Positions 2,799-19,742 of a stretch of DNA of 64,000 bases are shown here, in pieces. Under the pieces are notes generated by a model. The model ran no database searches, was not told where the DNA came from, and was given only the letters and a program-made list of their open reading frames with translations. Numbering within the stretch: the first letter of the stretch is position 1; each line of letters opens with the position of its first letter. Made by a program: the position numbers and the translations under genes. Source of the stretch: a virus (Duplodnaviria > Caudoviricetes). The stretch is taken from positions 78,929 through 142,928 of IMG/VR virus record IMGVR_UViG_3300015607_000582. One strand, written 5' to 3'.

Positions 2799-5700
2799 CT
2801 ACTGCTTGGGCCTGAAGGGGTCACCCGCCGCGCTCAGCGCAGCGATGTCGTCGTAGTTGACCCACCCGGTGGCGTAGTGCGGATGGAGCTTGCCGACATC
2901 GTTGAGCGGGATGTGGACGAGCACCATCTTCATGAACGGCTCGATGTCGACCACCTCGCCCCGGCGTCCGGGCTGCAGATCCGCATACTGGTCGCGCCAC
3001 TCGGGTGCGCCATTCGGGCCGCTGTCGGCGTTGACGCGCTGCTGCAGCTCCGGGTGCCACCCAAGGTCGAGCGTCCGGTAGATGGGCAGACCGTCCTGCG
3101 ACTCGCCGATGGGCTGCGCGCCCGGAATCGGGATCTTGCCCCCGCGCACCTCCAGCGTCACGGGCTTGCGGAGCTGGAAGATGGCCTTCTGGTTGCTCTT
3201 GCGCGACATGGCGTACCACGCCTCGACATCCTGCTCCGCCCCGAAGTGGAACTCGGAGCGACGCAGGGCCGTGACCGAGGCGAGCACCGCCACCTTGATG
3301 CGCTCGTAGCGGTACGGGTCGCCCGCCATCTTCCTGACCTGCGCCTCGTAGTGCTCATGCGCGAAGCAGACCGGCACCTCGTCCCCTCCGCCGAACCGCA
3401 TGATCGTCTTGGCGGGCTCGCCGCAGTGACGACACACGGGGGCCGCGACCTTCGAGTACAGGTGCGCCGGGTGGGTCGGAGACCAAGCGATGGCGTTGGC
3501 TGGAGCGCCCGGCTCGTCCACCCGCCGAGCACTGGGCTCGATGAGCGGCTGCTGGGGGCGCGGCCCCTCGGGGTGCTCAGACAGGTTGTGCTCGGGCACC
3601 CACCGCTGGCCCTTGGACGTGTCGTCGTAGCGAACCTCGTACTGCCAGTACGAGCCGACCGCGTGGGCCGAGCCATTGTTCGTCGGATCGAGCCACCTGC
3701 GCTCGACGACCACTCCGGGCTCGCGCAGGTAGCCCACGTAGGTGTGCGCGCCGACCTCGAACTTGGGCGGCGTGGTCAGGTGCGACAGCGGCACCTGCAT
3801 GTGCTTCACGCCCGGCAGGGTGGCCGCCGCAGGGGCGACTGCATTCCCGAGCGGATAGTCGGAGGCGGGTCGGCCATTGACGGCAGGGAAGTTGACCAAG
3901 AACGGGTTGTGCGGATCCTGCTCGACGCCCTCCAGCGGCTCCTCGCCCCACCTGCGATGTCGGACGTCAGTCAGGTTCGACTTGAGCAGCTCGAAGCCGT
4001 GCAGGATGCTGTTGTAGAATCGTTCGAGGTGCGTGCCGGTGTCGAACTGCTGGTTGTTCTGCTCGCGGGCATGGGCACTGACACTCCGCACCGCACCGGC
4101 AGCGACGTTCAGCTCGCCGACGATGCGCGTGGCGATCCGGATCAGCTCCGGTCGAAGCGGATCGCCGCGCTCGTCGGTCGGGGACGTCAGGAAGCGACGC
4201 TGCAGATTGCGGGCCATCTCCTCAAGCGAGCCCGCCGTACCGTCGGGATTGCTGAAGCCCCAGTTGCGACCGCCGTGAGCCTCCATGTTGCAGCCCGCCG
4301 TGGCGAGAGCCGCGATGGCCTGAGACAGCTCGTCCTCGTCGTAGTTGACGCCCCAACTCGACTCCTCGGTGCCACTCAGTTCAAGGATGTGCTCGACCAG
4401 CTCCTCCTCGACCTTCTCCCAGTCGATCTCATCGACGTAGTGCGCTTCTTGGTAGTCGCGCGTCTCGCCGTCGTCGTCGTACTCGTACTCGCTGCTGGCG
4501 GTGAAGCGGTCGAAGTCGTCCTTGAAGTCGATGGCGTCGTCGAGGTCGGTGATGCTGAACGACTCGCCGTCGTGCCAGTAGTCGCCGTAGTGCTCGCGCC
4601 GCTCCTCCAGCCGCCGCTCCTCGTCGTAGCCGAACTCGTGATGGTCGTAGGCGGCGCTGTCGTTCTCCTCTGATCGGTCGACGGTGATGTCGTACTTGGC
4701 GGCGACGTCGTTGTAGAAGCGCACCATGATGTCGGAGACAGGGTTCTTGCCGGAGCGTTCGACGCTGCGCTCGTCGAGCGGCTGGTTGTCGTTGGCGCGC
4801 ACCTCCAGCGGCACCCACTCGTTCGCGTAGGGAAAGCCGCCACGCCTCCCGCGCAGACCGATGAACAGCGACGCGAGCGGTCGACCCGACTGACTCCGCA
4901 GGCCGACGGCGATCTGGTTGCCGTCGTAGATCGGCGCACGGTACTGCTCGCCGTATGAGCTGTCAGAATCGGCGTAGCAGTGGCTGAGCATCTCACCATG
5001 GCGCTCCATGGAGTCGCTGTCGTTCGGGTCGAGGACGACCGCGTAGTTGCCCTTCTTGTCCTCCCAGACCTTCTTGTCCTCGTCGTCCCAGTAGATCGAG
5101 TTCGTCTCGGGGTCGAGGCCGATGCTCTCCAGCTCCCCCACCCACGAGCGCAAGCTGGAGAAGTCATCGCCCTTGGGGTCGAAGCCGCCTCCGCCAACCT
5201 CGCGGTCGCCGTACATCCGCTGCCACTCGATGAAGGGGATCGCGTTGTCGAGCGTCGAGAGGTCGTAGCTGTTGACGGGGTTGAGGCGCTTGGCCTTCAC
5301 CTCCTCGGCGATCCACGGGTAGATGGTCGCTGCCTCGGGATCCAGACCCTCGATGAGCTGGGAGATGACCTGCAAGTTCGTCAGCCCGGCACCCTCGCCG
5401 TCGTACTCGCTGCCGCGCTTGACCATCTTCGGCGGCTTCGACCACCCCTCGACACGGAGCTGCGCGATCCAGTAGGCGTCGCCGATGATCTCCCTGATCT
5501 CCTCGGTCAGGGGAACCTTGCGCTCCTGTCCGTCGCCGAGATCGAGGAACAGCTCATCCGAGAGCGGGATCGCGCGCAGGCTGTGGCGGACTTTGCTGAC
5601 ACGCCAGAGGTTGCCGGGGGAGATGGTGAAGTGGGCGTCGTTGTCCCAGCCCTCATCGGAGTCTGGCTGGACGCCCGCCTCGCGCATGATCGCATCGAAG

Positions 5701-6023
5701 AGCTTGACGTACTCGCCGCCCCATCGACGCCAGATGAACTCGGGCGACGTGTTGCGCACGACGTCGCCCTCCATGATCCGACGCGGGTCGAACGGCTCCT
5801 TGGCCCACTTCTGGGGCTCAAGCTGCTTGAGCAGCGACTCGCGCTTGCGCTCCGCGTACTCGGGGTCGACCGCCGCCGTGCGACGAAGACCAGACGCCAG
5901 CGAGCGCATGACGTAGTCGTGAACCGGGTTGGTTCGATGCACCTCGCCGCAGTGGGGGCACGGGCGCTCGTCGTCGCCACCGATCCAGTTGGCGAGCGTG
6001 CCTTCGCTCCATCCGTCGATCAT
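2799..6023 (-). CDS. Polyvalent multidomain protein 3 (Zn-knuckle, PcfJ-like domain, acidic region, SH3-like, Zn-finger)
   Basis: PcfJ-like pattern SMERHGEMLSHCY...GLRSQSGRPLASL...EVRANDNQP. CPHC and CRHC..C.AH motifs. SH3-like PKFEVG..PGVVVE..YEVRYDD..WVPEHNL. Confidence 0.7.
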   Translation of the reverse strand: MIDGWSEGTLANWIGGDDERPCPHCGEVHRTNPVHDYVMRSLASGLRRTAAVDPEYAERKRESLLKQLEPQKWAKEPFDPRRIMEGDVVRNTSPEFIWRRWGGEYVKLFDAIMREAGVQPDSDEGWDNDAHFTISPGNLWRVSKVRHSLRAIPLSDELFLDLGDGQERKVPLTEEIREIIGDAYWIAQLRVEGWSKPPKMVKRGSEYDGEGAGLTNLQVISQLIEGLDPEAATIYPWIAEEVKAKRLNPVNSYDLSTLDNAIPFIEWQRMYGDREVGGGGFDPKGDDFSSLRSWVGELESIGLDPETNSIYWDDEDKKVWEDKKGNYAVVLDPNDSDSMERHGEMLSHCYADSDSSYGEQYRAPIYDGNQIAVGLRSQSGRPLASLFIGLRGRRGGFPYANEWVPLEVRANDNQPLDERSVERSGKNPVSDIMVRFYNDVAAKYDITVDRSEENDSAAYDHHEFGYDEERRLEERREHYGDYWHDGESFSITDLDDAIDFKDDFDRFTASSEYEYDDDGETRDYQEAHYVDEIDWEKVEEELVEHILELSGTEESSWGVNYDEDELSQAIAALATAGCNMEAHGGRNWGFSNPDGTAGSLEEMARNLQRRFLTSPTDERGDPLRPELIRIATRIVGELNVAAGAVRSVSAHAREQNNQQFDTGTHLERFYNSILHGFELLKSNLTDVRHRRWGEEPLEGVEQDPHNPFLVNFPAVNGRPASDYPLGNAVAPAAATLPGVKHMQVPLSHLTTPPKFEVGAHTYVGYLREPGVVVERRWLDPTNNGSAHAVGSYWQYEVRYDDTSKGQRWVPEHNLSEHPEGPRPQQPLIEPSARRVDEPGAPANAIAWSPTHPAHLYSKVAAPVCRHCGEPAKTIMRFGGGDEVPVCFAHEHYEAQVRKMAGDPYRYERIKVAVLASVTALRRSEFHFGAEQDVEAWYAMSRKSNQKAIFQLRKPVTLEVRGGKIPIPGAQPIGESQDGLPIYRTLDLGWHPELQQRVNADSGPNGAPEWRDQYADLQPGRRGEVVDIEPFMKMVLVHIPLNDVGKLHPHYATGWVNYDDIAALSAAGDPFRPKQ

Positions 6024-9000
6024 CGCCAGTTCTCCTCGAAGTTGCTCATGTCAGTCGACCGCTCAGCGATCAGGTTGTCAGGGCCGACCCATCCCTCGTG
6101 ACCGTCATCAAACTGGACGTGGTAGACGGTGCCACCCTCGAAGAGGCCGTCGGGCTCATGCTTGACCTCGATCACCCGGCCCGGCTTGTCGATGACCTCC
6201 GGCCAGTCGGGGATCTTGGCACGGGCATCTGGATGCGTGACGAGGCGGTAGATGACGCGATCTCCGCCCTTGAAGCGGTAGTCCGTCGCGCGCAGCTCCT
6301 CGGGCACCTCGTGGATGCGGCGGTTGTACTCGGCTCGATGAAGTTCGGTCCACGCCTGCCGCTCGTCCTCGTCCATCTCGCCATCAAGGTAGCGGCGGTT
6401 CTGCTCGGCCATGAAATCATCGACTCTGCCGTCGGCACGCCAGTAGTCTTCGTACTCGTCGCCCACAGACGAGTACGTGCCGGGGAACTGGGTCGGGTTG
6501 CCGGGGTTCTCCCAGCCGGGCGGGTTCGCGCCGGGGATCGACGTCGGGTTGGTCGGCGGCACCGGCTGACCGCCGGGCGGCGCGGTGATGTCGAACAGCT
6601 TGAACTGGCCGGGGCCGGGGCCCTTCTTGCGCTGCGGCGGGGTGAACGGGTTCGCCGGGCGCGGCGCGATGGGGCCGGGCGGCGGGCCCGCAGGCTGCGC
6701 TGGCATCTGCTGCTCGATCTGCTCGCGCATGTCCGGCAGCGAGATGATCGGCGGCTTGTCGTCGGGGCTGAACGAGCGCGGGAGCTTGTCGAGATCGAGG
6801 CCGAGGTCGGCCCGCTGCTCGTCCATGCCGGGAATCTGGCCCTTGTTGCGCTCGAACAGCTCGTCCTCCGAGAACGGGGTGACGCGCTGGCCCGGCGCGG
6901 GCTTGAAGGCGGGGTCGAGCGCCTTCAGCTCCTCGATGCCTTCGAGCGGATGCGACTTGCTCGCCCAGTACAGCGCCCGGACGTGAGAGCACGGGCGGCC
7001 CTCCAGCCGCTTCCACTTGCGAGTGCGCCCCCACGCATACTGCGACCACTTGCAACCGCAGTGCCACATGTCGATGCTGGACGACCTCGGGTCAGTCGAC
7101 TCGATCTCGACCTCGTAGTCGCCATGGTCGCCGATGACATGGCCCTGCGTGAGGATGCCGGGCTTGGTGGGGTGAATGCCGTGGTAGTTGACGGTGACCT
7201 TGCCATCGCGAATCAGGCGCATGGACTTCTGCATGGTGTTCTCGGCCACCACGAGGCGCATCCCGAGCCCGAGCCCCGCGACCTTCGCGATGTGCTCCCC
7301 GGTCAGCTTCTCGATTGCGGGATGGAGCCCCGCGTTGGCGATGGCCTTGTACGCCACGTTGGCGTCGCTGAAGTCTCCGAGCCCGGCGCGCTGTGCCTCC
7401 TGCCGCGACTTGTGGAGCTGGTGCCAGAACTCGCGTGCCGCATCGGGCGCGTACATGAGCAGCAGCTTCATCTTGTCGACGACCATCTCGGCGTAGGCGC
7501 GCAGCGAGGGGCGCACCTCCTTCGCCATCGACTTGTCCGGCGGCACGATCCACTCGCGCTTGTCGAGGTCGTAGCCCGAGCGCAGGCCGGGCTTGTACAG
7601 GTCCTCGCGGCGGATGTCAGCCGGAACCACGTACGCCTGCAGCGGGATGTCAGTTCCCGGCAGCTTGGTGCCGTCGACGCTGCCGACCATCACCTTGACG
7701 AGGTCGGCCCGAACCCAGTCGGGCATCCGGGCGGCGTCGACGAAGAGGCTGACGTCGAAGTCGGACGGGCCGGTGTCATCGTACTGGTACGTCGTCAGCG
7801 AGCCGGTCAGGACGAGCGACAGGTACTGGTCGGGGTCAGGCCATCCGGCGGCGACCATGGCGTCGGTGATGGTCTTGCGGACGAAGTCGATGATCTCGGG
7901 CTTGACGTCAGGGGTCGCCGACGACGGGTTGTCGAAGACGTGCGAGCTGAGCTGGTCGCGCACCGGGTCGAGGATGTTCGCAGTGCGCCGCTGGCGCAGG
8001 TGCGGGTAGTCGTCAAGGATCGCCTCGTCAATCGCATCGAGGTCAATACCTCGCTGAAGCGCATCCTTGACGAAATCCTCGTGCGTCCAGAGCCACGACT
8101 TGTCTGGCACGACGCCCGATACGCTGCCGACATCCTCGGCTTCGTTCTGGTACCAATACCCAGTGTCGTCCCACCCCTCGTTGATGGCGTGGTTCGCGTA
8201 TGCGTCGCCCGAACCTCCGTGCCAGTCCCCCATGTCCCCGCCGTTGAACGGATACCCCATCTCGTGAGCGTCCGCCATATCGTCTTCTCGATGGGGAGAG
8301 ACACGAACGGGGATGAAGGTCGGCTTGGTGTGCCAGTCCTTGGGCCCCTTGTGCCATGTGTCCGCAGTCTCTGCGCGCAGCGCATCGAGCGGCTCGTGCG
8401 GCTGCCACTTGAGGCTGCTGGCATTGCCGCCAGCGAGATTCGCAGTCATCGCTTCGTACGCCGCCTTCTGCGTGCCGAAGTGGATGACGCCGTCCCCCAT
8501 CTCCCCGGCCGGGGTCGCGTGCCAAAGCGTGTCGGGGTGACGCTCGAACTCCCACTTGGTCATCTCATGGGGCTCGCGCTCATCATGGCGAAGGCTGCCC
8601 GAGCCGGGCTCTACACGATGCTCCCAGTCCTCCCAGAGCGCGTGCGCCTCGGCGATCATGCGCTCGGTCTCGTGGTACGGGTCGATCAGGTCGCCCGTGG
8701 CGAGTGACACGAGTACGCGGTCGCGGTCGACCGACGCGAGATGGCGCTCGGCGGTCTCGAAGCCGATCATCGCCACGCGCACGAGCGCGCCCGGCCCGCA
8801 GTGACGGGTGACGACCTCGCGCACGGTGTCGGGCTCGACGCCTTCGACGGCGATGTGGAGGTCGCCGGGCTGCATGGGCCGTCGCTGGACGACGTCGCGG
8901 ACGGTCTCGCCTGCGACGTAGACGGTGCCGTACTCCAGCAGCTCCTGCGCGGGCTCCCAGAGCGGATCGCAGGCGAGGAGCTTGATGCACTTGGCCGCGA

Positions 9001-9298
9001 TGTTCGACGACGCGAGGCGGTACCGCTCCTCGCCGACCAGCCGGTAGATGTGCTTGATCTCCAGCTCCGGGTGCATGGTGTACCAGAGCCGCGTCAGGTG
9101 GAACACCGTCCACGGCATGTCCGTGTCCGTGCGGATCTGCAGATTGCCCTTCGGGTCGTAGACGCCTTCGACGATGCCGCCGGGGTTGAACTTACCGGAG
9201 ATGTCTGCGTGCCGCTCGCCGGGCTGGCCGACGTAGACGCGGTCGCCCTCGATGTCGTAGATCATCGGGATGGGGCCATGCAGCTCGACGTCAGGCAT
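6020..9298 (-). CDS. Polyvalent multidomain protein 2 (degenerate CCA/polyA-polymerase head, ART-like, Pol-beta nucleotidyltransferase, SWIM finger, Pro-rich linker, SH3-like)
   Basis: VYVAGETVRD. LWHATP..IHFGT..YQNEAED. VLTGS..SDFDV. CGC..GRPCSH. FKGGDRV..PGRVIEV..YHVQFDDG..WV. Confidence 0.75.
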   Translation of the reverse strand: MPDVELHGPIPMIYDIEGDRVYVGQPGERHADISGKFNPGGIVEGVYDPKGNLQIRTDTDMPWTVFHLTRLWYTMHPELEIKHIYRLVGEERYRLASSNIAAKCIKLLACDPLWEPAQELLEYGTVYVAGETVRDVVQRRPMQPGDLHIAVEGVEPDTVREVVTRHCGPGALVRVAMIGFETAERHLASVDRDRVLVSLATGDLIDPYHETERMIAEAHALWEDWEHRVEPGSGSLRHDEREPHEMTKWEFERHPDTLWHATPAGEMGDGVIHFGTQKAAYEAMTANLAGGNASSLKWQPHEPLDALRAETADTWHKGPKDWHTKPTFIPVRVSPHREDDMADAHEMGYPFNGGDMGDWHGGSGDAYANHAINEGWDDTGYWYQNEAEDVGSVSGVVPDKSWLWTHEDFVKDALQRGIDLDAIDEAILDDYPHLRQRRTANILDPVRDQLSSHVFDNPSSATPDVKPEIIDFVRKTITDAMVAAGWPDPDQYLSLVLTGSLTTYQYDDTGPSDFDVSLFVDAARMPDWVRADLVKVMVGSVDGTKLPGTDIPLQAYVVPADIRREDLYKPGLRSGYDLDKREWIVPPDKSMAKEVRPSLRAYAEMVVDKMKLLLMYAPDAAREFWHQLHKSRQEAQRAGLGDFSDANVAYKAIANAGLHPAIEKLTGEHIAKVAGLGLGMRLVVAENTMQKSMRLIRDGKVTVNYHGIHPTKPGILTQGHVIGDHGDYEVEIESTDPRSSSIDMWHCGCKWSQYAWGRTRKWKRLEGRPCSHVRALYWASKSHPLEGIEELKALDPAFKPAPGQRVTPFSEDELFERNKGQIPGMDEQRADLGLDLDKLPRSFSPDDKPPIISLPDMREQIEQQMPAQPAGPPPGPIAPRPANPFTPPQRKKGPGPGQFKLFDITAPPGGQPVPPTNPTSIPGANPPGWENPGNPTQFPGTYSSVGDEYEDYWRADGRVDDFMAEQNRRYLDGEMDEDERQAWTELHRAEYNRRIHEVPEELRATDYRFKGGDRVIYRLVTHPDARAKIPDWPEVIDKPGRVIEVKHEPDGLFEGGTVYHVQFDDGHEGWVGPDNLIAERSTDMSNFEENWR

Positions 9299-12230
9299 GG
9301 GGCTCTCCGTTCAGTCCGATGTGCGATGGCGGGAACAGCTCGGGCGGGCGCGGGTCGCCCCACACGTCGCGCTCAGGGCCGACGTAGTCGCCAACGTGGA
9401 CTGCCGGTCGGCCGATCTTGTCGCGGAACTCCGCCATCGGCCCCATCCTGCGCACGACGGTGACGGGAACGTGCGTGTGGCCGAGGCTCTCTGCCATCTC
9501 AAGGCGGTGGTGGCCCTCGCCGAGGTAGGCATGGCCGTCGGCAGCACTCCACTCCAGCATGAGCGGCTGGTTGATGCCGTGCTCGGCGATGTGGTCGCGG
9601 AGGCGCGCGAAGCTGACATCGTCGTTGATCCTGTCGCCTCCCGTCCGGTCGAACTCCGCGAACCGCCTGACTTCGGAGATCGGCATCATCTCGGCGAACT
9701 GCATCTGCCATCCCGGCTTCTCGCTGTACTGCTGCCACTTCGGGGTCTCGCCACGGTCGATGGACGACCAGTCGGGCTCCTGCGCCCATGGCGCGGCCGT
9801 CTTCGGCCGTCGGATGCGCTCCGGAAGCTGGCTCCCGTACTGCTCGCGCCAGTCGCCATGATCCCAGTCGGTGACGTAGCTCGGGTGGATGGGGCCACGG
9901 TGCGTCATGCCCGCATCGTGGGGCACACGCGGCTCGTCGTGCCAATCCTCCTCGGGAGGGTAGGGGTCGGCGTAGTTGCGCAGGCTCTCGTGGAGATCCT
10001 CGGGCAGGTGCGGCCAGAGCCGAATCGCCTCGGGGATGCGAACCCGATCCTTGCTCGATCCGGGCAGCTCCTCCGGCGGCACCTCGCCGTGCTGTGTGAC
10101 CGCGTCCCAGATGTCATGCGTGGGGTCGTACCACTCATCCCATCCGTGCGTGCCGCGCTCCAGCTCGTGAGGCTCGTAGTCGTCCTCCTCCTGCGCGACC
10201 TGCTTCCACTCGTCGCGCTCGTCCTCTGGGCGGCGCGTGTGGTGGAGGATGTCCGCGAAGTGCTCGGGGTCGCCCTGAATGCGGCTGGGGTCGAGGCCCT
10301 GCATCTTGACGATGACGGGGTCGTTGAGCTTGTTGTTGATCGCCATGGTGCCCGCCCACTGCGCCGCCGTCTCGTAGTGCGGGAACACGTAGACGTGATC
10401 GGTCAGGCGCGGCACCCACTCGACCGTGTGCGAGGGATCCTGCTGGAACCTCGCGGGCAGGATGCCGCTCTGCTGGATGACCGGCAGGTTGGAGCGATCC
10501 GTGACGTGGTACCACTCGTCGTTGAACCGACCCATGCCGACTGCAGTCCAGCCCGCGACGACGCCGAGCTGATCCTGCTTGCGCTGGTAGTCGACGAAGT
10601 TGTTGGGGAAGGTGGCGTCCATGTTGACGTAGGGGTCGACCTCGCTCGGCAGCGGGTCGGCTCGCGTGTGCTCGGCGACAGTGTGCTCGCGCCATGCCCC
10701 GTAGTCGGGGAAGTGCTCGCCGCACTCGGAGCACTCGTACGCACCGCCGTTGGGCTCGCCCTCGTCGGGGCCGTCGATGCTCCATCCGGGCGGCGGCATC
10801 TGGTCGAACTGGTCGGTGCCCGCCCACTCCTTGTTGCGCCAGTCCTTGACGCCGGGGTTGTTGGGGCCGACGCCGAAGCCTGCGGCAGTCGTCTGCGACC
10901 ACGCGACGGCGTCCGGGGACATGTGGCCCCAGTCGTGCTCGACGGCCCCGAAGACGCGACGTGCCTCTTCGAGCAGGGCGGAGGCGACGCCCGTCCGACG
11001 GTACTCGGGCTCAACCTGCACTCCGCCGATGACCCACTGCCCCTGATCGCCCTTCGCGACCGACAGGATGCCCACGGCCGTCTGCCCCGAGTAGGCGATG
11101 AAGTGGTTGAGGGTCTGCTTGATGGCGAAGGACGGCGGCAGCGGCATGGCCGTACGAACGCGACCCTCGACCTGTCGCATGCGGAAGTTGTAGAGCACCT
11201 CGTTGAACGAGCTGTCGATCAGCCACGCGAGCGGGTCTTCGACCTCGGTGACCGTGTAGTCGACCCCGTTGAGGCGGTAGACGCGGCCGACCTGCGGCAC
11301 GCCCTCGCTGTCTGGCGTCACCTGCGCGGCGGGGGCGGCCGGGTTGATCGGCTGCACGCCCTCGCCACGGCAGTTGCAGTCGCCGCGCTCGCACTTGCGG
11401 AGCTGCGCCTTGGCGTTCCGGTCGCTACGGTAGTCGCTCGGCGTCGCGGCGACGTTGACCTTGTGCCCATTCTGCACGAAGCGGAAGTGGCCGCCCGGCA
11501 GCGGTACCAGCTCCCACCCGGCCTTCGTGGCCTCGGGGAATCGCTGGAGGATCTTGCGGTTGGCTACGCGCTCTCGCGGAAGGCGGCGCTCTTGACCTGA
11601 GCCTCGCGCAGGCTCTCCGGCGTCGGCTGCCAGCCATCCGTCACGCCGCACGACGGGCAGGGGAAGGTCTCGCCCTCCCGGTGCGCCACCCGATGCCCGC
11701 AGCTCTGGCACGGACGCCTCCAATGACCGCTCGCCGTCTGCACGACGGTCGGGTCGCCCTTCTCGAACTTCTGCATGGATGGCTTCATGGTCACTCCTCA
11801 GTGTGCCCGTTTTCTCCAGATGAGGCAACCCCTGCTCGTCGATCAGCCCCTTGTAGTTCCATCCGTAGGTCTTGGCGGCCTTCTTGAGCGCCTTCTCGAC
11901 GATGTCCAGCTTCATGTTGCTCGACAGCAGCTCGAACTCGGCGTCCCAGCGGTCGAACAGGTGCAGGATCCCCTTGGCGTGGGGCCGTGAGAAGTGCGAA
12001 TGGCTCGCCATCTCCAGCATGAGCTGGTGATCTGCGGTCGGGTGGATCAACACCTGATCCTTGCCCACGACGACCCAGTTGTAGGGCGTCGGCTCGTGGC
12101 TGGGCTCGACCCGCGTGTAGTCAGGGCGAGGAGCGAGCGGCTGAACCTTGGGGCGGGCGTCGTTGGCCGCCTGCGGCTCCTCGGCGGGGTAGGCATCGCT
12201 ACCGGAGGTGTCAGAGGTTCGGTGCGTCAT
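9291..12230 (-). CDS. Polyvalent multidomain protein 1 (HicA-like, GNAT, C2H2 finger, ADP-ribosyltransferase-like, ParB-like)
   Basis: AGWELV..GGHFRF..ATPSDYRSDRN (HicA-like). VQVEPEYRRTGVASALL (GNAT motif A). CSECGEHF..WREHTVAEH. WYHVTDRSNLPVIQQSGILP (ART). HIAEHGINQPL..EGHHRL (ParB). Confidence 0.8.
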   Translation of the reverse strand: MTHRTSDTSGSDAYPAEEPQAANDARPKVQPLAPRPDYTRVEPSHEPTPYNWVVVGKDQVLIHPTADHQLMLEMASHSHFSRPHAKGILHLFDRWDAEFELLSSNMKLDIVEKALKKAAKTYGWNYKGLIDEQGLPHLEKTGTLRSDHEAIHAEVREGRPDRRADGERSLEASVPELRASGGAPGGRDLPLPVVRRDGWLAADAGEPARGSGQERRLPRERVANRKILQRFPEATKAGWELVPLPGGHFRFVQNGHKVNVAATPSDYRSDRNAKAQLRKCERGDCNCRGEGVQPINPAAPAAQVTPDSEGVPQVGRVYRLNGVDYTVTEVEDPLAWLIDSSFNEVLYNFRMRQVEGRVRTAMPLPPSFAIKQTLNHFIAYSGQTAVGILSVAKGDQGQWVIGGVQVEPEYRRTGVASALLEEARRVFGAVEHDWGHMSPDAVAWSQTTAAGFGVGPNNPGVKDWRNKEWAGTDQFDQMPPPGWSIDGPDEGEPNGGAYECSECGEHFPDYGAWREHTVAEHTRADPLPSEVDPYVNMDATFPNNFVDYQRKQDQLGVVAGWTAVGMGRFNDEWYHVTDRSNLPVIQQSGILPARFQQDPSHTVEWVPRLTDHVYVFPHYETAAQWAGTMAINNKLNDPVIVKMQGLDPSRIQGDPEHFADILHHTRRPEDERDEWKQVAQEEDDYEPHELERGTHGWDEWYDPTHDIWDAVTQHGEVPPEELPGSSKDRVRIPEAIRLWPHLPEDLHESLRNYADPYPPEEDWHDEPRVPHDAGMTHRGPIHPSYVTDWDHGDWREQYGSQLPERIRRPKTAAPWAQEPDWSSIDRGETPKWQQYSEKPGWQMQFAEMMPISEVRRFAEFDRTGGDRINDDVSFARLRDHIAEHGINQPLMLEWSAADGHAYLGEGHHRLEMAESLGHTHVPVTVVRRMGPMAEFRDKIGRPAVHVGDYVGPERDVWGDPRPPELFPPSHIGLNGEPHA
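11564..11788 (-). CDS. Small Zn-ribbon protein nested out of frame inside the 979-aa ORF
   Basis: GAGGAG RBS plus ATG. CQSC...CPSC. Third positions are G/C-rich in this frame but not in the enclosing frame. Confidence 0.7.
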   Translation of the reverse strand: MKPSMQKFEKGDPTVVQTASGHWRRPCQSCGHRVAHREGETFPCPSCGVTDGWQPTPESLREAQVKSAAFRESA

Positions 12231-12235
12231 GAGGC

Positions 12236-12248
12236 TTCGACGATTAGG
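12236..12248 (-). promoter_or_regulatory. Class B (putative late) promoter
   Basis: CCTAA-TCGT-CGAA directly before the ATG at 12230. Confidence 0.55.
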
Positions 12249-12264
12249 TGTGAGCCCACGACAG

Positions 12265-12343
12265 GCACTGCGCGGTCCCCTGCGCCCGAGGCGGCCACGC
12301 TGGCCGAAGAGGTCGCGCCCCGGACACAGGGAACCCGCAGTAC
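12265..12343 (-). ncRNA. Long G-U-containing hairpin, candidate structured RNA
   Basis: GTACTGCG-GGTTCCCTG-TGT-CCGGGGCG / CGCCTCGG-GCG-CAGGGGACC-G-CGCAGTGC. Non-Watson-Crick positions are G-U on the minus strand. Lies between two class B motifs. Confidence 0.5.
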
Positions 12344-12380
12344 GAGACCTCGATCACCTCCGCCATCGGACGACAACCTC

Positions 12381-12393
12381 TTCATGGATTAGG
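12381..12393 (-). promoter_or_regulatory. Class B (putative late) promoter
   Basis: CCTAA-TCCA-TGAA, intergenic. Confidence 0.6.
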
Positions 12394-12401
12394 CAGAGCA
12401 G

Positions 12402-12569
12402 TCAGTCGCTCGCGGGGGCGTCGTCGACCGTCTGGCCCACGCCTCGCCTCGCGCGCTTGGGATGCACATCGCACCGAAGGCACACGTATGCAGGCAGCTT
12501 CTGCCGCGAGGTACTCTCGGCAGCGAGTTGCCGGACGGAGCCGCACAGACGACAGGTGGCCTCATCCAC
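12402..12569 (-). CDS. Small Zn-finger protein
   Basis: GTG start overlapping the upstream stop region. CRLC...CLRC. Confidence 0.5.
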   Translation of the reverse strand: MDEATCRLCGSVRQLAAESTSRQKLPAYVCLRCDVHPKRARRGVGQTVDDAPASD

Positions 12570-12795
12570 GCTTGGATGAACCGAAGCGACCCGGCGAGCC
12601 ACCCGCGCCCTGAACAGTGCCAAGGCCGAACCCGGATCGGTAGTCGCGCTTGTGCGGCGTGTCCAGCCCCACACCAGCATCATCAACGCCAGCGCAGCTA
12701 CAGGGAAGCATGAGCGATTCGGAAACCTCATCGAGCCTCAGCTCCCTCTCCGTGACGAACCCACAGCTCTCGCATCGGTAGTCGTAGACCGGCAT
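12562..12795 (-). CDS. FmdB-like zinc-ribbon protein
   Basis: MPVYDYRCESCG N-terminal signature. Confidence 0.8.
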   Translation of the reverse strand: MPVYDYRCESCGFVTERELRLDEVSESLMLPCSCAGVDDAGVGLDTPHKRDYRSGFGLGTVQGAGGSPGRFGSSKRG

Positions 12796-13082
12796 CACCA
12801 CGCCCTCCCCTCGTTGCCATGCTTGGCGAGCCACTGGCGGATGAGCTTGTACGCGCCCTCGGCTCGCTCCAAGGCGCGTTCGATGTCGTGTTCGTCGGGC
12901 GACCCGCGCAGGCAGTTGATCGTGCGGACGAGCGCCCGCTGCGTGGCGAACAGGTCGTCGACCTCCGGCACGGCGCGCTTCATCGGCTGGCGCTGGTAGG
13001 GGTGCTCGAACGACCGTGGCAGCGGCTGGGCGATCTGGAAGTGATCCCCGCCCAGCGGGTTGGCTGGATCGTAGGGGCTCAC
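12795..13082 (-). CDS. Hypothetical protein
   Basis: Coupled ORF with phage-like codon usage. Confidence 0.65.
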   Translation of the reverse strand: MSPYDPANPLGGDHFQIAQPLPRSFEHPYQRQPMKRAVPEVDDLFATQRALVRTINCLRGSPDEHDIERALERAEGAYKLIRQWLAKHGNEGRAW

Positions 13083-13471
13083 TCGTCCTCCTCGTCCTCG
13101 GGCTCGTCGTCATCGGTGAACTCCAGCGCGGGAGCGCGGTGGTCGCCGGTCAGTGCGCCGAGGGGCGTGGCGTGCAGCTCGGGCTCGTCAGCCACCTCGG
13201 TGTCGTCGGCGGCCGCCAGCTCCTCCTGCGCCTGCGCCCTGCCGCGCTCCGCCCAGTAGTCCTTGACGTGGCCCTCGAAGCGGTCGCGCACTGCCTCCAG
13301 CTCCTTGGTGAGCGGGCTGTAGCGCACATCCACGAGGTTGTTGTGGCACTTGGCGATGTCCTCCGCCTGCTGCTTGCCCAGCGCGAGGCCGATGACCTCG
13401 ACGAGGTTCATCAGGTCGGGGACGCGAACCTCGACGAAGTCCATCTTGTAGCTGTCGGCGTCAGACGCCAT
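13079..13471 (-). CDS. Hypothetical protein with acidic C-terminus
   Basis: GGAGG RBS, coupled ORF. Confidence 0.7.
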   Translation of the reverse strand: MASDADSYKMDFVEVRVPDLMNLVEVIGLALGKQQAEDIAKCHNNLVDVRYSPLTKELEAVRDRFEGHVKDYWAERGRAQAQEELAAADDTEVADEPELHATPLGALTGDHRAPALEFTDDDEPEDEEDE

Positions 13472-13787
13472 TGAGTGCCTCCTCGATCAGGGTCTCGATA
13501 CGGTCGAAGTCTGGGGCGTGCAGGCTCACGGCCTGAATCGCGCGCTCCCAGAACACCTGCCTCATGCCCCCAGAGGAGCGCATGATGATGAACGGCGACG
13601 ACTTCTGGTTGGCCTCGGCCATGAAGTCCTCCAAGCAGTGCTCCATGAAGCCTGCGACGCCGATCTCCTTGATGTAGAGCGCGGGTGCCTCGATCTCCAT
13701 GAGCGCCAGCACCGGATCCTCCCGGTTCTCCAGATAGAACTCCATGTGGAGGTCGAAGGCGATCTCTGGGCCCTCGTCGCCGATCAC
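13461..13787 (-). CDS. Hypothetical protein
   Basis: Coupled ORF, GC3-rich. Confidence 0.7.
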   Translation of the reverse strand: MIGDEGPEIAFDLHMEFYLENREDPVLALMEIEAPALYIKEIGVAGFMEHCLEDFMAEANQKSSPFIIMRSSGGMRQVFWERAIQAVSLHAPDFDRIETLIEEALNGV

Positions 13788-14071
13788 TGGTCAGCCACTG
13801 CCTTCCCATGCGCGTCGACCAGCCAGATGAGCGACTTGCACACGCCGCACTGCCACAGGTTCACCGGGAGATCGGGCTCGCCGGGGCGGTCGTCGATGAA
13901 CTGCTGGACGGCGTTGAGCGGATGCGGGCACTCGGTGGCCGGGCGATCCTTGGCGGCCAGCACCTCGGTCTTGCGCATGAGCTGCGCGTCCGGGTTGATC
14001 TGCTTGATCGGCGCGACGCCGTCGCGGATCATCTCCTCGAACGTCGACATCTTCTTGGGCTGGTCAGCCAA
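13784..14071 (-). CDS. Hypothetical protein with CxH/CxxC Zn motif
   Basis: GGAGG plus TTG at 14071. ECPH...WQCGVC. Confidence 0.65.
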   Translation of the reverse strand: MADQPKKMSTFEEMIRDGVAPIKQINPDAQLMRKTEVLAAKDRPATECPHPLNAVQQFIDDRPGEPDLPVNLWQCGVCKSLIWLVDAHGKAVADQ

Positions 14072-14642: not shown

Positions 14643-14645
14643 CAG

Positions 14646-15266: not shown

Positions 15267-15269
15267 GAG

Positions 15270-15860: not shown

Positions 15861-16111
15861 CAGCAGTTCTCCGAGTTCTCGGTGTAGAACTCCGTGACCT
15901 TCTCGTCGACGCGCTCCTTGAGCACCTCGTAGCGGTCGGCGACGAACGCCTCGACCAGCTCCTCGGACAGGCCCTCGACGTTCCACCGCTCGGTCTGCGA
16001 GACGTGCAGGTCAGCACTCTCGTACTTCGCGATGCTGGCCTTCACTCCAGCGGAGTAGCTGACGACAGCCTCGATCTGCTTGGGCTGCGGCAGTTCCTTC
16101 TTCGGCGGCAT
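15860..16111 (-). CDS. Hypothetical protein
   Basis: First ORF after class A promoter, coupled to the kinase. Confidence 0.75.
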   Translation of the reverse strand: MPPKKELPQPKQIEAVVSYSAGVKASIAKYESADLHVSQTERWNVEGLSEELVEAFVADRYEVLKERVDEKVTEFYTENSENC

Positions 16112-16140
16112 GCTTCCCCCATGGGTTGGACTTGCGCCCC

Positions 16141-17462: not shown

Positions 17463-19742
17463 CTACTCCATGTTCCGGCGGAAGGCGGGCGGCACCTTGT
17501 CGATCACCACGCGACTGCTCCGGCGCATGTCCCACTTCAACTCCGGCTCGTCGGCTGCCACGACGGTGCGCTTCGACGATTCCTTGATGCGTCGCGACCG
17601 CTTGCTCAGCTCGATCTCGATCATGGTCTCCTTGAGCCCCGCCAGTCGCCTGTCCACTTCCTCCGGATCCAGCTCGGCAAAGCTGGCTCCGACTGGCTTC
17701 GGCATACCGGGGCGACGCTCGTCGCTGATCGGCGGCCTTGCCCCCATGTTGCCTGCACCGCCGGACGAACCTCCGGGGATGGGCGGAGCCCCGCCCGGAG
17801 GAGTGCCCAGTCCCGGCGGAGGGGGCGGCATCACGATGCCGCCGGGCAGACCGCCCGCCATGTCGCCGCCGGGAGGCGGGCCGCCCACCATGCCGCCGCC
17901 CATGTCGCCGCCGGGCGGCGGGCCGCCCATGCCACCCGGAGCACCGGGCCCCATCGCGGGTGCGTTCGTGCTCTCGACCTCGGCCTTGAGGTCGGGCGGA
18001 ATCGGCAGGCCCTGCGTCTGCAGGATCTTGTACGTCTGGAGCTTCGCCTGCTGCTGGGCGACGGTCTTCTGGATCATCTCCTCGGACAGCTCATCGAGCG
18101 TGTCCTTGAAGTCGAAGCCGACGTTGACCATGAGGCGGTTGTCACTGATCGGGGCACCCATGGCGCGCAGGGTCTGGAGGAACTGTCGCTCCGTCGCCTC
18201 GTCGCGCATGTTGAAGTTCTCGAACTGCAGGTCGATGTCGAGGAGCTTGTGCTTCTCGACGATGTAGGGATCGCCGTCATCGTCGTACTCGATCACTTCC
18301 TCCATGATCGGCACGCGGGTCTGGCCCCGCTTCTCGTAGTCGTAGTGGCCCTGCGCCTCGGCGACCACCTGAGCCCGCTCGGTGAAGAACCGCTTCAGGT
18401 AGTTCTGGTAGGTCTTCATCTGCTGGTTCATGAACTCCGCCTGCAGGGCGGAGCTGGCGTACGGCTGCGCGTTCGAGCCACTGGAAAGCAGCGACGGGTT
18501 GATGCCGAAGCCCTGCATGATGCGGCGCTCGATGCGGTCGAAGTCGTTGCCGAGATCCGGCACCTGCTCGCGGCCGAAGACGTTCTGGACGTCGAGCGCG
18601 TGATGGTAGACGAGCAGGCGGAAGTCGCTGGCGAGCGCGATGTCCATGTCGTCGCGGAAGCTGTCGAGCTGGTCGGGCGTCGGCAGCCACCCCTCCTGCC
18701 CGGCGATCATGTCGCTCGTGCCGAGCTTGGCGAGGATGAGCGGCGAGTACAGGCGCTCTGCGATGGCGTCCTGCGACGCCAGCAGCTTCTCCTCGTGGAG
18801 CAGCGTGCGCAGGATGCCGAGCATGATCGGCGTACCGTGATCGTCCCAGTCCGTGTGCGTCGTCGCGATGTGCTTGAGCATCACGTCGGACACGGGGAAC
18901 GGCTCGCCGCGCAGGGCGTACGGGATCAGGTGCTCGTAGTTGATCTGGAGCTGCTTGTACTCGTCGGACGGCGACTTCGTCTGCGCGAGGCGGCGCAGGG
19001 ATTCGGGCAGGTGAACCTTGAGCTGCTGGGTGCCCATGAGCGGGAACCGCTCGATGACGATGTTCTCGGGGTTGAGCAGCTCTTCGCGCTCCCACACGCC
19101 GAGGCTCTCGTTGAACGAGCCGAGCGGGAACGCCTCGCCGACCGTGAACACCTCGCGGCCGATCTTGTAGAGGAACTCCTCGTAGTTCAGCTTGTCGAGG
19201 AACTCCTCCTCGTAGAACTGCGTGACCTTGCGATCCTGACACTCGATGCGCAGCCCGGCCAGCGGGAATCGCGAGTAGATTTCCACGAGCTGCTTGACGA
19301 GGTAGTGCGTCGAGTAGTACAGGCGCATCCACTTGTGCAGCTTGTGGCGATGCCCCTCGTCGGCCATGTTCCACGGCAGGCCGGAGAGATCCCAGTATTC
19401 CATGGGGTCGTAGAAGCGCGGCAGGGCGGCCATGACGTCGGAGCCCATCGACCCGATCTTCTGCATGCCCATCGACGCGCTGGCGTTCCGGTGACGCCGC
19501 ATCGCCGAGATGACCTCGGCGTTCTTCTGGAGATCGCGCACCTCGGGGCTCGAAGCCGTCCGCTCGAAGTGCGACCGGACGTCGGCCTGAAGCTGCCCCG
19601 GCGTCTTCACCATGGAGGCGTAGTCGTTCGCCGCCGCCATCCGGGCCTTGTAGTTGCGCGGGAGCGAGACCCCCTGCGCCTGCAGGCTCTGCAGCTCGCG
19701 TGCAAGGTCTCGCGGAACCTTCTTGCGCTTTCCGTCACTCAT
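17463..19742 (-). CDS. Portal protein with Pro/Gly-rich C-terminal insert
   Basis: Position downstream of terL. YSRFPL, GEAFPLGSFN, WDDHGTP, AQ-like 'SQDAIAERLYSPLILAKLG' and DFRLLVYH patterns typical of large actinophage portals. Confidence 0.8.
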   Translation of the reverse strand: MSDGKRKKVPRDLARELQSLQAQGVSLPRNYKARMAAANDYASMVKTPGQLQADVRSHFERTASSPEVRDLQKNAEVISAMRRHRNASASMGMQKIGSMGSDVMAALPRFYDPMEYWDLSGLPWNMADEGHRHKLHKWMRLYYSTHYLVKQLVEIYSRFPLAGLRIECQDRKVTQFYEEEFLDKLNYEEFLYKIGREVFTVGEAFPLGSFNESLGVWEREELLNPENIVIERFPLMGTQQLKVHLPESLRRLAQTKSPSDEYKQLQINYEHLIPYALRGEPFPVSDVMLKHIATTHTDWDDHGTPIMLGILRTLLHEEKLLASQDAIAERLYSPLILAKLGTSDMIAGQEGWLPTPDQLDSFRDDMDIALASDFRLLVYHHALDVQNVFGREQVPDLGNDFDRIERRIMQGFGINPSLLSSGSNAQPYASSALQAEFMNQQMKTYQNYLKRFFTERAQVVAEAQGHYDYEKRGQTRVPIMEEVIEYDDDGDPYIVEKHKLLDIDLQFENFNMRDEATERQFLQTLRAMGAPISDNRLMVNVGFDFKDTLDELSEEMIQKTVAQQQAKLQTYKILQTQGLPIPPDLKAEVESTNAPAMGPGAPGGMGGPPPGGDMGGGMVGGPPPGGDMAGGLPGGIVMPPPPPGLGTPPGGAPPIPGGSSGGAGNMGARPPISDERRPGMPKPVGASFAELDPEEVDRRLAGLKETMIEIELSKRSRRIKESSKRTVVAADEPELKWDMRRSSRVVIDKVPPAFRRNME

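What the first reader, a model, noticed from the sequence alone, without database searches (positions are those of the whole stretch)
2799..12230. Three tandem ~1000-aa effector polyproteins with a recurring (K/R)-(T/V)-A-type motif at module borders: candidate protease-released, virion-packaged enzyme arsenal
Seen: three coupled late-type ORFs (class B motif before 12230) are each a string of unrelated small modules: HicA-like, GNAT, C2H2, ART-like and ParB; a dead CCA-like head, ART-like, Pol-beta NTase, SWIM and SH3-like; PcfJ-like, SH3-like and Zn fingers. A short motif sits just before most modules: ERVA|N (HicA), VRTA|M (GNAT), QTTA|A, GVVA|G (ART), PKTA|A (ParB), YRLA|S, RRTA|N (NTase), AKVA|G, LVVA|E (SWIM), RRTA|A, SKVA|A. 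The same kind of motif occurs in the head-region proteins and the portal (RVLA|A, VRVA|N, ERTA|A, RQAA, SKTA|D, ERTA|S). Established: phage 'polyvalent proteins' combine such domains, and prohead proteases (T4 gp21, phiKZ gp175) cut portal, scaffold and internal head proteins at short motifs. Inference: these proteins are packaged whole and cut into individual host-takeover or anti-defence enzymes, with motif-bounded cassettes exchangeable between phages.
Basis: partly seen in the sequence, partly recalled or inferred. Interest (0 to 1): 0.88.

Follow-up and report, generated by a model that had tools for sequence, protein, structure and literature searches.

The report
Phage enzyme polyproteins with junction motif
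A 143-kb uncultured actinobacterial phage encodes three back-to-back proteins, each a string of swappable enzyme modules joined by a short Lys/Arg-Thr/Val-Ala peptide; the peptide is a real, family-wide junction signal and probably a protease cutting site, but no cutting or packaging has been shown.

Summary
The three ORFs (979, 1092 and 1074 aa, minus strand) are real, well coded and translationally coupled. They lie in a 96%-complete phage genome distantly related to Mycobacterium phage Bxz1. GNAT, C2H2, ParB, SWIM, a Pol-beta-type nucleotidyltransferase (NTase) and a degenerate CCA head are confirmed. The HicA-, ART- and SH3-like calls are unverified, and Pfam PcfJ hits a different protein.

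Four metagenomic relatives carry the same modules in other orders, fused or split differently. The border motif is real once sharpened to [KR]-[TVI]-[AGS], usually followed by Ala:
- Eight of 17 sites in the window lie within 4 aa of a homology breakpoint (2.4 expected).
- In 106 representatives where more protein follows the NTase module, the motif comes straight after it in 43% (background 0.4%). C-terminal copies stop just before it.
- It ranks first of 512 tripeptide classes at other module starts.
- The phage's prohead-protease fusion protein is the most motif-rich protein in the proteome.

Cassette exchange is shown. Cleavage, and delivery in the virion, are plausible but untested. Related proteases in jumbo phages cut after Glu, and the genes sit among DNA-metabolism genes. 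This scan has noted similar junction-motif polyproteins in at least eight other phage genomes. I rate it a new variant of polyvalent proteins.

The parts
9291..12230 (-). Polyprotein A (979 aa): N-terminal domain, nested-gene linker, HicA-like?, GNAT, C2H2 module, ART-like?, ParB
11814..12107 (-). A residues 42-139: conserved N-terminal domain, always N-terminal in about 20 homologues; function unknown
   Evidence: 74-80% identical in L006/L008/L009. AF2 pLDDT 74-97. Best fold hit is phosphohistidine phosphatase at Z 6.3, which is not decisive.
11805..11813 (-). Junction tripeptide KTG (A 140-142) at the end of the N-terminal domain
   Evidence: Breakpoint cluster of 17 alignment ends. Relatives end EKTG|M, EKTGA|D, KKKG|D. 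First low-pLDDT residues after the domain.
11564..11788 (-). Nested +1-frame gene: GAGGAG-N5-ATG, then a 74-aa CxxC...CxxC zinc ribbon, inside A's linker (A residues about 146-222)
   Evidence: GC3 is 0.90-0.92 in the +1 frame against 0.60-0.64 in A's frame. The same sequence is in a second assembly, L017. No homologue found.
11376..11558 (-). A residues 225-285: HicA-like module (unverified); matches phrog_2089
   Evidence: phrog_2089 at 7.9e-9. AF2 gives a small beta/alpha block at 232-280. Pfam HicA_toxin: no hit.
11148..11156 (-). Junction tripeptide RTA (A 359-361), just before the GNAT domain
   Evidence: Low-pLDDT stretch 327-362, with the fold starting at 363-370. No homology breakpoint within 16 aa.
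10896..11144 (-). A residues 363-445: GNAT acetyltransferase
   Evidence: Pfam PF00583, 28.1 bits against a cut-off of 20.7
10884..10892 (-). Junction TTA (A 447-449), then Ala, before the C2H2 module; relatives have RTA-A, KVA-A, KTGA
10536..10883 (-). A residues 450-565: C2H2 zinc-finger module, shared with about 20 homologues
9804..10535 (-).
   Evidence: 59% identical to P0010 residues 7-258. Pfam DarT: no hit. Not modelled with confidence.
9795..9803 (-). Junction tripeptide KTA (A 810-812), then Ala, between the ART-like and ParB modules
   Evidence: Breakpoint at 813. P0010 has ...PERIRRPKRTA|A followed by a different module.
9411..9740 (-). A residues 831-940: ParB/sulfiredoxin-fold domain
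   Evidence: PHROG 3147 and 26387. Pfam ParB_N in relatives. VIA Z 8.2 and 7.2.
6020..9298 (-). Polyprotein B (1092 aa)
8645..9298 (-). B residues 1-218: N-terminal domain plus degenerate CCA-adding-enzyme head
7988..8644 (-).
   Evidence: Only P0012 and L008 share it
7979..7987 (-). Junction tripeptide RTA (B 438-440), directly before N-I-L-D-P of the NTase module
   Evidence: Breakpoint cluster of 23. K/R at -3 in 72 of 87 internal copies against 20 of 60 N-terminal copies. pLDDT below 50.
7286..7978 (-). B residues 441-671: Pol-beta-superfamily nucleotidyltransferase module
   Evidence: 330 cluster representatives. Invariant TGS..SDxD. AF2 pLDDT 88. Fold hits ANT, CdnE, TUT and CCA enzymes.
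7277..7285 (-). Junction tripeptide KVA (B 672-674), directly after ...GEHIA
   Evidence: 46 of 106 internal junctions carry [KR][TVI][AGS] here and 62 of 106 carry [KR]x[AGS]. Nineteen C-terminal copies stop at ..IA. It starts a disordered linker.
6938..7240 (-). B residues 687-787: SWIM zinc-finger module
   Evidence: Pfam SWIM 14.8 bits (below the cut-off); phrog_2940 and phrog_30974; also in relatives
6023..6463 (-).
   Evidence: 58% identical to P0010 residues 488-630
2799..6023 (-). Polyprotein C (1074 aa); residues 14-795 and 912-1074 form the C-terminal half of the 1897-aa fusion protein of L008
5874..5882 (-). RTA (C 48-50), then Ala, after the N-terminal CxxC ribbon; candidate junction, untested
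   Evidence: no informative homologue
3444..3452 (-). Junction tripeptide KVA (C 858-860), then Ala; in L006 a separate gene starts here (M-PECRHC)
3297..3443 (-). C residues 861-909: zinc-ribbon module
   Evidence: 60% identical to L006 gene C residues 2-48
3288..3296 (-). Junction tripeptide KVA (C 910-912)
   Evidence: Breakpoint cluster of 4
2802..3287 (-). C residues 913-1074: conserved C-terminal module (74% identical in L006 and L008; also in L010 and P0121)
17463..19742 (-). Portal protein, 5 kb upstream in the transcription direction; has ERTA|S at residues 61-64 (DKKA|S and DRKA|S in relatives)
   Evidence: phrog_2833 at 2.4e-155

Best explanation
Three translationally coupled polyvalent-type proteins of an uncultured Bxz1-related actinobacterial myophage. 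Each is a chain of independently folding modules:
- A: N-terminal domain, GNAT, C2H2, ParB.
- B: dead CCA head, Pol-beta NTase, SWIM.
- C: zinc ribbons and unknown modules.

The modules are separated by disordered linkers that carry the tripeptide [KR]-[TVI]-[AGS], usually followed by Ala. This tripeptide is a selected junction signal used throughout a large family of such proteins in roughly 150-kb uncultured phages.

Most likely (inferred, not shown) it is the recognition site of the phage's own head-maturation protease (819-aa fusion protein, genome 13211-15670), with a small residue at P1. On that reading the proteins are loaded into proheads, cut into single enzymes and delivered with the DNA.

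Shown: the modules, their shuffling, and the motif's position and its conservation at the protein level.
Inferred: cleavage, the identity of the protease, packaging, and the roles of the enzymes (RNA-end repair or modification, acetylation, DNA binding).
For: - Module shuffling, fusion and fission among syntenic relatives.
- In the window, 8 of 17 motif sites are within 4 aa of a breakpoint, against 2.4 expected (0 of 5000 shifts reach this).
- After the NTase module, 46 of 106 internal junctions have the strict motif and 62 of 106 the loose one, against a background of 0.38% per position. The downstream modules form 47 unrelated BLAST clusters, and 29 of them include a motif-bearing member. 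Nineteen C-terminal copies end exactly before the motif.
- K/R at -3 occurs in 72 of 87 internal but only 20 of 60 N-terminal NTase copies (Fisher p 1.4e-9).
- In an unbiased scan of 512 tripeptide classes at 323 other module starts, [KR][TVI][AGS] ranks first (3.8-fold, p 1.5e-27).
- Junction copies have Ala at +1 in 43%, against 12% for other copies.
- The motif lies in low-pLDDT linkers flanking confidently folded blocks.
- The codons differ across loci of 48-68% GC, so selection is on the protein.
- The protease fusion protein is the most motif-rich of 148 proteins (12 against 3.7, p 0.0005).
- Its homologues show the same excess: ScottMcG gp94 13 against 6.2, Skog 13 against 5.3, CherryTomatoes 10 against 5.1, Finch 6 against 4.0. 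The reversed motif and the Glu motifs [AGS]-x-E are not enriched.
- Two other proteins in the virion region share the linker PDTLPEHWA(A)K[TV]A.
Against: - No cleavage product, virion proteome or expression timing exists. The NTase module has no homologue in 50,697 cultured-phage records.
- The genes lie in a block inserted between the portal gene and thyX that Bxz1-like and Gordonia relatives lack. The block holds a metallophosphoesterase, UDG and HNH genes, and thyX, RNase H, TK, ligase and RNR follow it.
- In more distant phages the neighbours are NADAR, Macro and rIIB-type genes.
- No MuF domain, capsid-targeting sequence or embedded peptidase was found.
- Jumbo-phage head proteases that match this protease at 28-31% identity belong to a group that cuts after A-x-E (PMC10052503).
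- N-terminal NTase copies always keep three to four residues with A/G/S at -1 before N-I-L-D-P (60 of 60), so part of the motif belongs to that module.
- Some motif copies in the protease protein are conserved inside the protease fold, for example KTG, which inflates the count.
- The junction counts include homologous junctions, so the p-values overstate independence.
Confidence: 0.45

Rival explanations
1. Uncleaved multidomain enzymes. The tripeptide is a preferred inter-module linker or N-cap, with a positive charge and a small residue at the start of each module. The proteins act intact in the cytoplasm as early or middle host-takeover or RNA-repair factors.
For: - The gene context is DNA and nucleotide metabolism and accessory genes, not head genes.
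- N-terminal NTase copies keep x-x-[AGS] before N-I-L-D-P. They often have a residue at -3 that permits Met removal, so a free amine could replace the K/R charge.
- There is no embedded peptidase.
- Some polyvalent proteins are transferred uncut, such as N4 vRNAP, ArdC and TraC1 (PMC5512222).
Against: - C-terminal copies of the NTase module drop the tripeptide entirely, and it reappears before 29 unrelated downstream module types.
- This reading does not explain the excess of the same motif in the protease fusion proteins of five phages.
- The motif sits in disordered segments rather than capping modelled helices or strands.
Confidence: 0.3
2. A true polyprotein that is cut at the motif by a protease other than the prohead protease (another phage protease or a host one). 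The cutting happens in the cytoplasm without virion packaging, as with RNA-virus polyproteins.
For: The junction motif and the linker disorder fit as above. The genes have a non-structural neighbourhood. The nearest characterised proteases prefer Glu at P1 (PMC10052503).
Against: No second protease was seen in the regions scanned, though the scan was not exhaustive. The motif excess in the head-protease fusion proteins points to that enzyme.
Confidence: 0.15
3. Chance: a loose Ala-rich pattern in a high-GC proteome that can be found near any border.
For: Raw counts in A-C are near background.
Against: Positional tests with shuffles, control motifs and an unbiased class scan all single out [KR][TVI][AGS].
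Confidence: 0.02

Closest known systems
Polyvalent proteins of phages and conjugative elements (Iyer, Burroughs, Anand, de Souza, Aravind 2017; PMC5512222)
   Same: Large phage proteins that string together unrelated conflict-type domains (ParB, NTases, ARTs and others). They show heavy mosaicism, predicted packaging in portal/terminase phages, and proposed release of domains by proteolysis.
   Different: That paper proposes release by peptidase domains embedded in the proteins (MPTase, assemblin-like). Here no peptidase is embedded, and a defined junction tripeptide marks the borders. The array is three coupled genes, partitioned differently in each relative, and lies in a Bxz1-related actinophage lineage. 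I found no MuF domain.
Prohead-protease-processed internal head or ejection proteins (T4 IPI-III and Alt with gp21; phiKZ and SPN3US with gp175 and gp245; PMC9026906, PMC10052503)
   Same: Enzymes packed in the head, trimmed by the head protease at a short motif, and injected. The protease also cuts itself and the scaffold at the same motif, and multiple motif copies occur in propeptides.
   Different: The known motifs end in Glu ([LI]-x-E, A-x-E) and remove N-terminal propeptides from single proteins. Here P1 would be Ala, Gly or Ser with Lys/Arg at P3, and the sites lie between modules of a polyprotein. Neither cleavage nor packaging has been measured.
Herpesvirus assemblin sites ([VLI]-x-A|S; from my own knowledge, not checked here)
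   Same: Phage prohead proteases share the assemblin fold. Cleavage occurs after Ala, with a beta-branched or aliphatic residue upstream.
   Different: There is no Lys/Arg requirement in assemblin sites, the virus lineage is different, and the resemblance is recalled rather than tested.
Phage-encoded CCA-adding enzyme fusions (about 1060-aa proteins with PolyA_pol + HD + a C-terminal NTase module; P0008, P0013-P0025)
   Same: The same N-terminal domain, C2H2 module, CCA head region and NTase module as A and B.
   Different: In those proteins the CCA enzyme looks intact (Pfam PolyA_pol, RNA-binding, HD). In this phage and its close relatives the head has lost GG, one Asp and about 40 residues, and the modules are spread over two genes.

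Membership tests
Polyvalent proteins (PMC5512222) | Several unrelated effector-type domains in one polypeptide | tested here: met
   A has five or more folded blocks, including GNAT, C2H2 and ParB. B has a CCA-like head, NTase and SWIM.
Polyvalent proteins (PMC5512222) | Encoded by a phage or conjugative element that has a portal/terminase system | tested here: met
   Portal, terminase, MCP, sheath and baseplate are in the same 143-kb virus record, which is 96% complete.
Polyvalent proteins (PMC5512222) | Extensive mosaicism of domain order among relatives | tested here: met
Polyvalent proteins (PMC5512222) | Embedded peptidase (MPTase, assemblin-like, LonC); common but not universal | tested here: not met
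   No peptidase family in the Pfam or PHROG scans of A-C. The unknown regions were not folded.
Polyvalent proteins (PMC5512222) | Delivered with the DNA (packaged in the capsid) | not testable with these tools
   There is no virion proteome, and the module has no homologue in cultured phages.
Head-protease-processed internal/ejection proteins (T4, phiKZ, SPN3US) | Cleavage motif shared with the protease's own propeptide or scaffold | tested here: inconclusive
   The motif is enriched 2-3-fold in protease fusion proteins of five phages, but part of this is fold-conserved and no cut has been measured.
Head-protease-processed internal/ejection proteins (T4, phiKZ, SPN3US) | Glu at P1 (x-x-E) | tested here: not met
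   The junction motif has A/G/S at that position. [AGS]-x-E is not enriched in the protease or head proteins; [LI]-x-E is enriched only marginally, in gp94 and gp79 of ScottMcG. [KR][TVI][DEQN] is not enriched at borders.
Head-protease-processed internal/ejection proteins (T4, phiKZ, SPN3US) | N-terminal capsid-targeting sequence | tested here: inconclusive
   A has a conserved domain that is always N-terminal (residues 42-139), with no known fold match above noise. Nothing comparable is seen on B or C.
Pol-beta nucleotidyltransferase superfamily (B 441-671) | G-[GS] ... [DE]-x-[DE] catalytic motif and NTase fold | tested here: met
   Invariant T74 G75 S76 ... S88 D89 x D91 in 40 sequences. 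The top Foldseek hits are all NTases, but the best E is only 7.5e-4 with low TM.
Class II CCA-adding enzyme head (PF01743), B about 127-218 | GG and DxD catalytic residues | tested here: not met
   GE replaces GG, D-L-H replaces DxD, and there is a deletion of about 40 aa relative to Pfam-positive homologues. The region is homologous but degenerate.
ParB/Srx fold (A 831-940) | ParB N-terminal-domain fold and profile match | tested here: met
   phrog_26387 and phrog_3147. Pfam ParB_N hits in the relatives, at (26.3 bits) or below the cut-off. Z 8.2 to sulfiredoxin and 7.2 to a ParB-N domain.
PcfJ (PF14284) for polyprotein C | Profile match | tested here: not met
   The only match in the genome is in the 1899-aa protein at genome 25200-25442. 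The Atlas lead scores only 0.84.
HicA toxin / DarT-type ART | Profile match | tested here: inconclusive
   No hit at E<=10 in the whole genome. The resemblances (GWELV..GGH; WYHVT..NLP.I..G) are by eye only.

The most novel reading that the evidence does not exclude
A whole lineage of roughly 150-kb uncultured phages uses a polyprotein code. Enzyme cassettes are bounded by [AS]-[KR]-[TVI]-[AS]-A, which the head-maturation protease cuts after the small residue. That would be a specificity unlike the Glu-directed T4 and phiKZ relatives. Arbitrary effector modules could then be gained, swapped, loaded into the capsid as long chains and released as single enzymes on injection.
Probability: 0.35. 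Interest if true: 0.8.

Novelty: new variant of a known kind. Interest (0 to 1): 0.66.

Why it matters
If the tripeptide is a cutting site, three things follow:
- It gives a new specificity for a phage head protease.
- It gives a simple sequence rule for splitting hundreds of giant "hypothetical" metagenomic phage proteins into their working units.
- It explains how these phages exchange effector cassettes without breaking function.

The idea can be tested in cultured relatives (Bxz1, ScottMcG, Gordonia phage Skog), whose protease fusion proteins carry the same motif excess. Even if nothing is cut, a conserved three-residue junction used before dozens of unrelated modules is an unusual feature of protein architecture.

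Tried and rejected
- Raw motif counts in A-C against the proteome show no excess. Only positional tests are informative.
- A nucleotide search of the 9.4-kb region against cultured phages found nothing. A protein search with the NTase module against the same collection also found nothing.
- A homologue search with C found only itself in the allowed length range.
- The portal ERTA|S site is conserved only in its loose form in relatives (DKKA|S, DRKA|S), so it is not decisive.
- The MCP N-terminus has a conserved [KR]-x-[AS]-K-[AG]-S-D stretch in relatives but no strict motif.
- A sequence search of the protease domain against the PDB gave no match.
- Complex prediction with the protease (residues 25-265) and A residues 790-830 returned no verdict. 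It counts neither for nor against.
- Atlas searches for A's N-terminal domain and for C gave only weak leads.
- Literature searches for a cleavage motif or virion N-termini in Bxz1-type phages found none.
- I considered that the K after ..GEYIA is a mutated stop codon. I rejected this because Q, E and Y are absent at that position and +2 and +3 are also constrained.
- I considered a DNA-level recombination scar. I rejected this because the codons differ across loci of 48-68% GC.
- The 'late promoter' CTAA-N4-YG is present 17 nt before A's ATG. However, it is confounded with TAA stop codons of upstream genes and also precedes the RNR gene, so expression timing is left open.
Full report
**Setting.** The window is the last 64 kb of a single 142,928-bp contig. 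IMG/VR lists it as a virus record and CheckV rates it 96% complete. It has 66% GC and nearly all genes are on the minus strand. PHROG scans identify these genes:
- terminase (22264-24585);
- portal (17463-19742, phrog_2833, 2.4e-155);
- a metallophosphoesterase;
- DNA polymerase, primase and helicase;
- baseplate and tail-fibre genes.

Outside the window they identify tail sheath, the major capsid protein (genome 11427-12503) and an 819-aa protein whose N-terminal 230 residues match a head-maturation protease (genome 13211-15670). The portal is about 40% identical to those of Mycobacterium cluster C phages (Bxz1, ScottMcG) and of Gordonia and Rhodococcus myophages. No cultured phage matches at the DNA level.

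**The three ORFs.** A is 9291-12230 (979 aa), B is 6020-9298 (1092 aa) and C is 2799-6023 (1074 aa). All have GC3 of 0.87-0.89. Their stops and starts overlap (ATGCCTGA and ATGA), and Shine-Dalgarno sequences precede B and C. ThyX, RNase H, thymidine kinase, NAD ligase and RNR follow them. In ScottMcG, Blubba, CherryTomatoes and Skog the portal gene is followed almost directly by thyX. The roughly 15-kb block that holds the polyproteins is therefore an insertion specific to this uncultured clade.

**Domains.** Confirmed:
- GNAT (above the Pfam cut-off);
- C2H2;
- ParB (PHROG, Pfam in relatives, fold Z 8.2 and 7.2);
- SWIM;
- a Pol-beta-type NTase (invariant TGS..SDxD, AF2 pLDDT 88, all top fold hits are NTases);
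- a CCA-enzyme head that has lost GG, one Asp and about 40 residues compared with Pfam-positive homologues.

Not confirmed: the HicA and DarT profiles give no hit, PcfJ hits the 1899-aa protein elsewhere in the genome rather than C, and the SH3-like calls were not tested.

**Cassette exchange.** Four metagenomic loci keep the synteny portal, phosphoesterase, small genes, polyproteins, thyX. They partition the array as 988+1060+403 (L006), 1055+1897 (L008), 836+>1551 (L009) and 1065+785 (L010). BLAST shows the same modules in different orders. B residues 5-946, C residues 14-795 and C residues 912-1074 form one protein in L008. A's N-terminal domain, its C2H2 module and B's CCA region and NTase module sit in one 1065-aa protein in L010. 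Gene ends coincide with module borders. In L010 the protein stops at ...GEHIA, with its TAA overlapping the next ATG. In L006 gene C starts where C has ..SKVA-A.

**The motif in the window.** I then defined borders independently, from the ends of alignments to 34 relatives. Eight of the 17 [KR][TVI][AGS] sites in A-C lie within 4 aa of a border, against 2.4 expected, and none of 5000 circular shifts reached this.

AF2 models place the sites in low-confidence linkers next to confident folds:
- RTA and KVA flank the NTase fold.
- KTG140, RVA221, RTA359, TTA447 and KTA810 lie in linkers beside A's folded blocks.
- RTG412 lies inside the GNAT cofactor motif and is not a junction.

**The motif family-wide.** The NTase module has 330 cluster representatives among 1.84 billion proteins. 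It occurs alone and at N-terminal, C-terminal and internal positions in proteins of up to 2580 aa.
- Nineteen C-terminal copies end exactly at ..GE[YH]IA.
- In 106 copies followed by more protein, the next three residues are [KR][TVI][AGS] in 46 and [KR]-x-[AGS] in 62. The background is 0.38% per position.
- The downstream modules fall into 47 unrelated BLAST clusters, and 29 of them include a motif-bearing member.
- Upstream of N-I-L-D-P, position -3 is K/R in 72 of 87 internal copies but in 20 of 60 N-terminal copies (p 1.4e-9). Position -1 is A/G/S in nearly all copies of both kinds.
- At 323 module starts not adjacent to the NTase module, an unbiased scan of 512 reduced-alphabet tripeptide classes ranks [KR][TVI][AGS] first (88 near, 287 far, 3.8-fold, p 1.5e-27). 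Its shifted versions rank next.
- Junction copies have Ala at +1 in 43%, against 12% elsewhere.
- Control motifs (acidic at P3, acidic or amide at P1, reversed order) are not enriched.
- The loci span 48-68% GC and use different codons for the motif.

Homologous junctions are counted more than once, so these p-values are too small. The direction and rank of the signal are nevertheless robust.

**Link to the head protease.** Among 148 predicted proteins, the protease fusion protein has the largest excess of the motif (12 against 3.7, p 0.0005). A 350-aa protein in the virion region ranks second. Against composition-preserving shuffles, the homologous protease proteins show:

| Phage | Observed | Expected |
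|---|---|---|
| ScottMcG | 13 | 6.2 |
| Skog | 13 | 5.3 |
| CherryTomatoes | 10 | 5.1 |
| Finch | 6 | 4.0 |

The reversed motif and [AGS]-x-E are not enriched in them. Two proteins in the virion region share the linker PDTLPEHWA(A)K[TV]A. There are two caveats. Some copies (KTG) are conserved inside the protease fold. Also, the jumbo-phage proteases that resemble this one belong to a group in which the studied enzyme cuts after A-x-E (PMC10052503).

**Interpretation.** The concept of polyvalent proteins is established. It includes predicted capsid packaging and release of domains by proteolysis (PMC5512222). What is new here is a defined junction tripeptide with a small residue where T4-type systems have Glu, used across a large uncultured lineage, with no embedded peptidase.
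- I put about 0.45 on cutting by the head protease with packaging.
- I put about 0.15 on cutting by another protease.
- I put about 0.3 on an uncut linker or cap. That reading is favoured by the non-structural neighbourhood and by the residues retained in N-terminal NTase copies.

This scan has noted junction-motif polyproteins in at least eight other phage genomes. Another note on this same genome proposes [K/R]-x-A sites in the late genes. Those notes are unchecked. I reached the protease enrichment before reading them.

**Side finding.** Inside A's residues 146-222 the +1 frame, not A's frame, carries the coding signature (GC3 0.90-0.92 against 0.60-0.64). It has GAGGAG-N5-ATG right after ..LEKTG and encodes a 74-aa zinc ribbon.

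Noticed in passing
window 11564-11788 (minus strand, +1 frame relative to polyprotein A): A nested 74-aa CxxC...CxxC gene with GAGGAG-N5-ATG lies inside A's linker. GC3 switches from A's frame (0.60-0.64) to the +1 frame (0.90-0.92). The same sequence is in a second assembly (L017). The peptide has no homologue in the relatives' polyproteins.
   Followed up: partly
window 12238-12247 and genome-wide: CTAA-N4-YG occurs 32 times on the minus strand and never on the plus strand, mostly 3-40 nt before gene starts. One copy lies 17 nt before A's ATG, which has no Shine-Dalgarno sequence. The pattern is confounded with TAA stop codons of upstream genes and also precedes the RNR gene.
   Followed up: partly
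window about 267, 2177, 16165, 37626, 39441: The box GGTTCGTCCG(ACG) recurs 11 times in intergenic DNA of the genome. One copy follows the phosphoesterase gene and one precedes thyX. It may be a promoter or an operon boundary bracketing the block that holds the polyproteins.
   Followed up: no
genome 23217-28916 and 40147-41199 (outside the window; L003, L002): The 1899-aa protein carries the genome's only Pfam PcfJ match. It shares the linker PDTLPEHWA(A)K[TV]A with a 350-aa protein that is the second most motif-rich protein in the proteome. Both look like further junction-motif proteins in the virion region.
   Followed up: partly
window 12231-17429 compared with L012, L013, L016: The whole stretch from the portal gene to thyX (phosphoesterase, about 10 small genes, three polyproteins) is absent from cultured Bxz1-like and Gordonia relatives, where thyX follows the portal gene within about 1 kb.
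   Followed up: yes
L010:2373-5570, L018:5812-8772, L019:5735-9229: Many related phages carry an apparently intact CCA-adding enzyme (PolyA_pol + RNA-binding + HD) fused to the same N-terminal domain, zinc finger and NTase module. In this phage's clade the CCA head is degenerate.
   Followed up: partly
L004:11427-12503 (MCP) and relatives: The capsid-protein N-termini of Bxz1-like, Gordonia and Rhodococcus relatives share ..[KR]-[FV]-[AS]-K-[AG]-S-D at about residues 12-19. This is a candidate propeptide site of the loose [KR]-x-[AGS] type. It is less clear in this phage.
   Followed up: no
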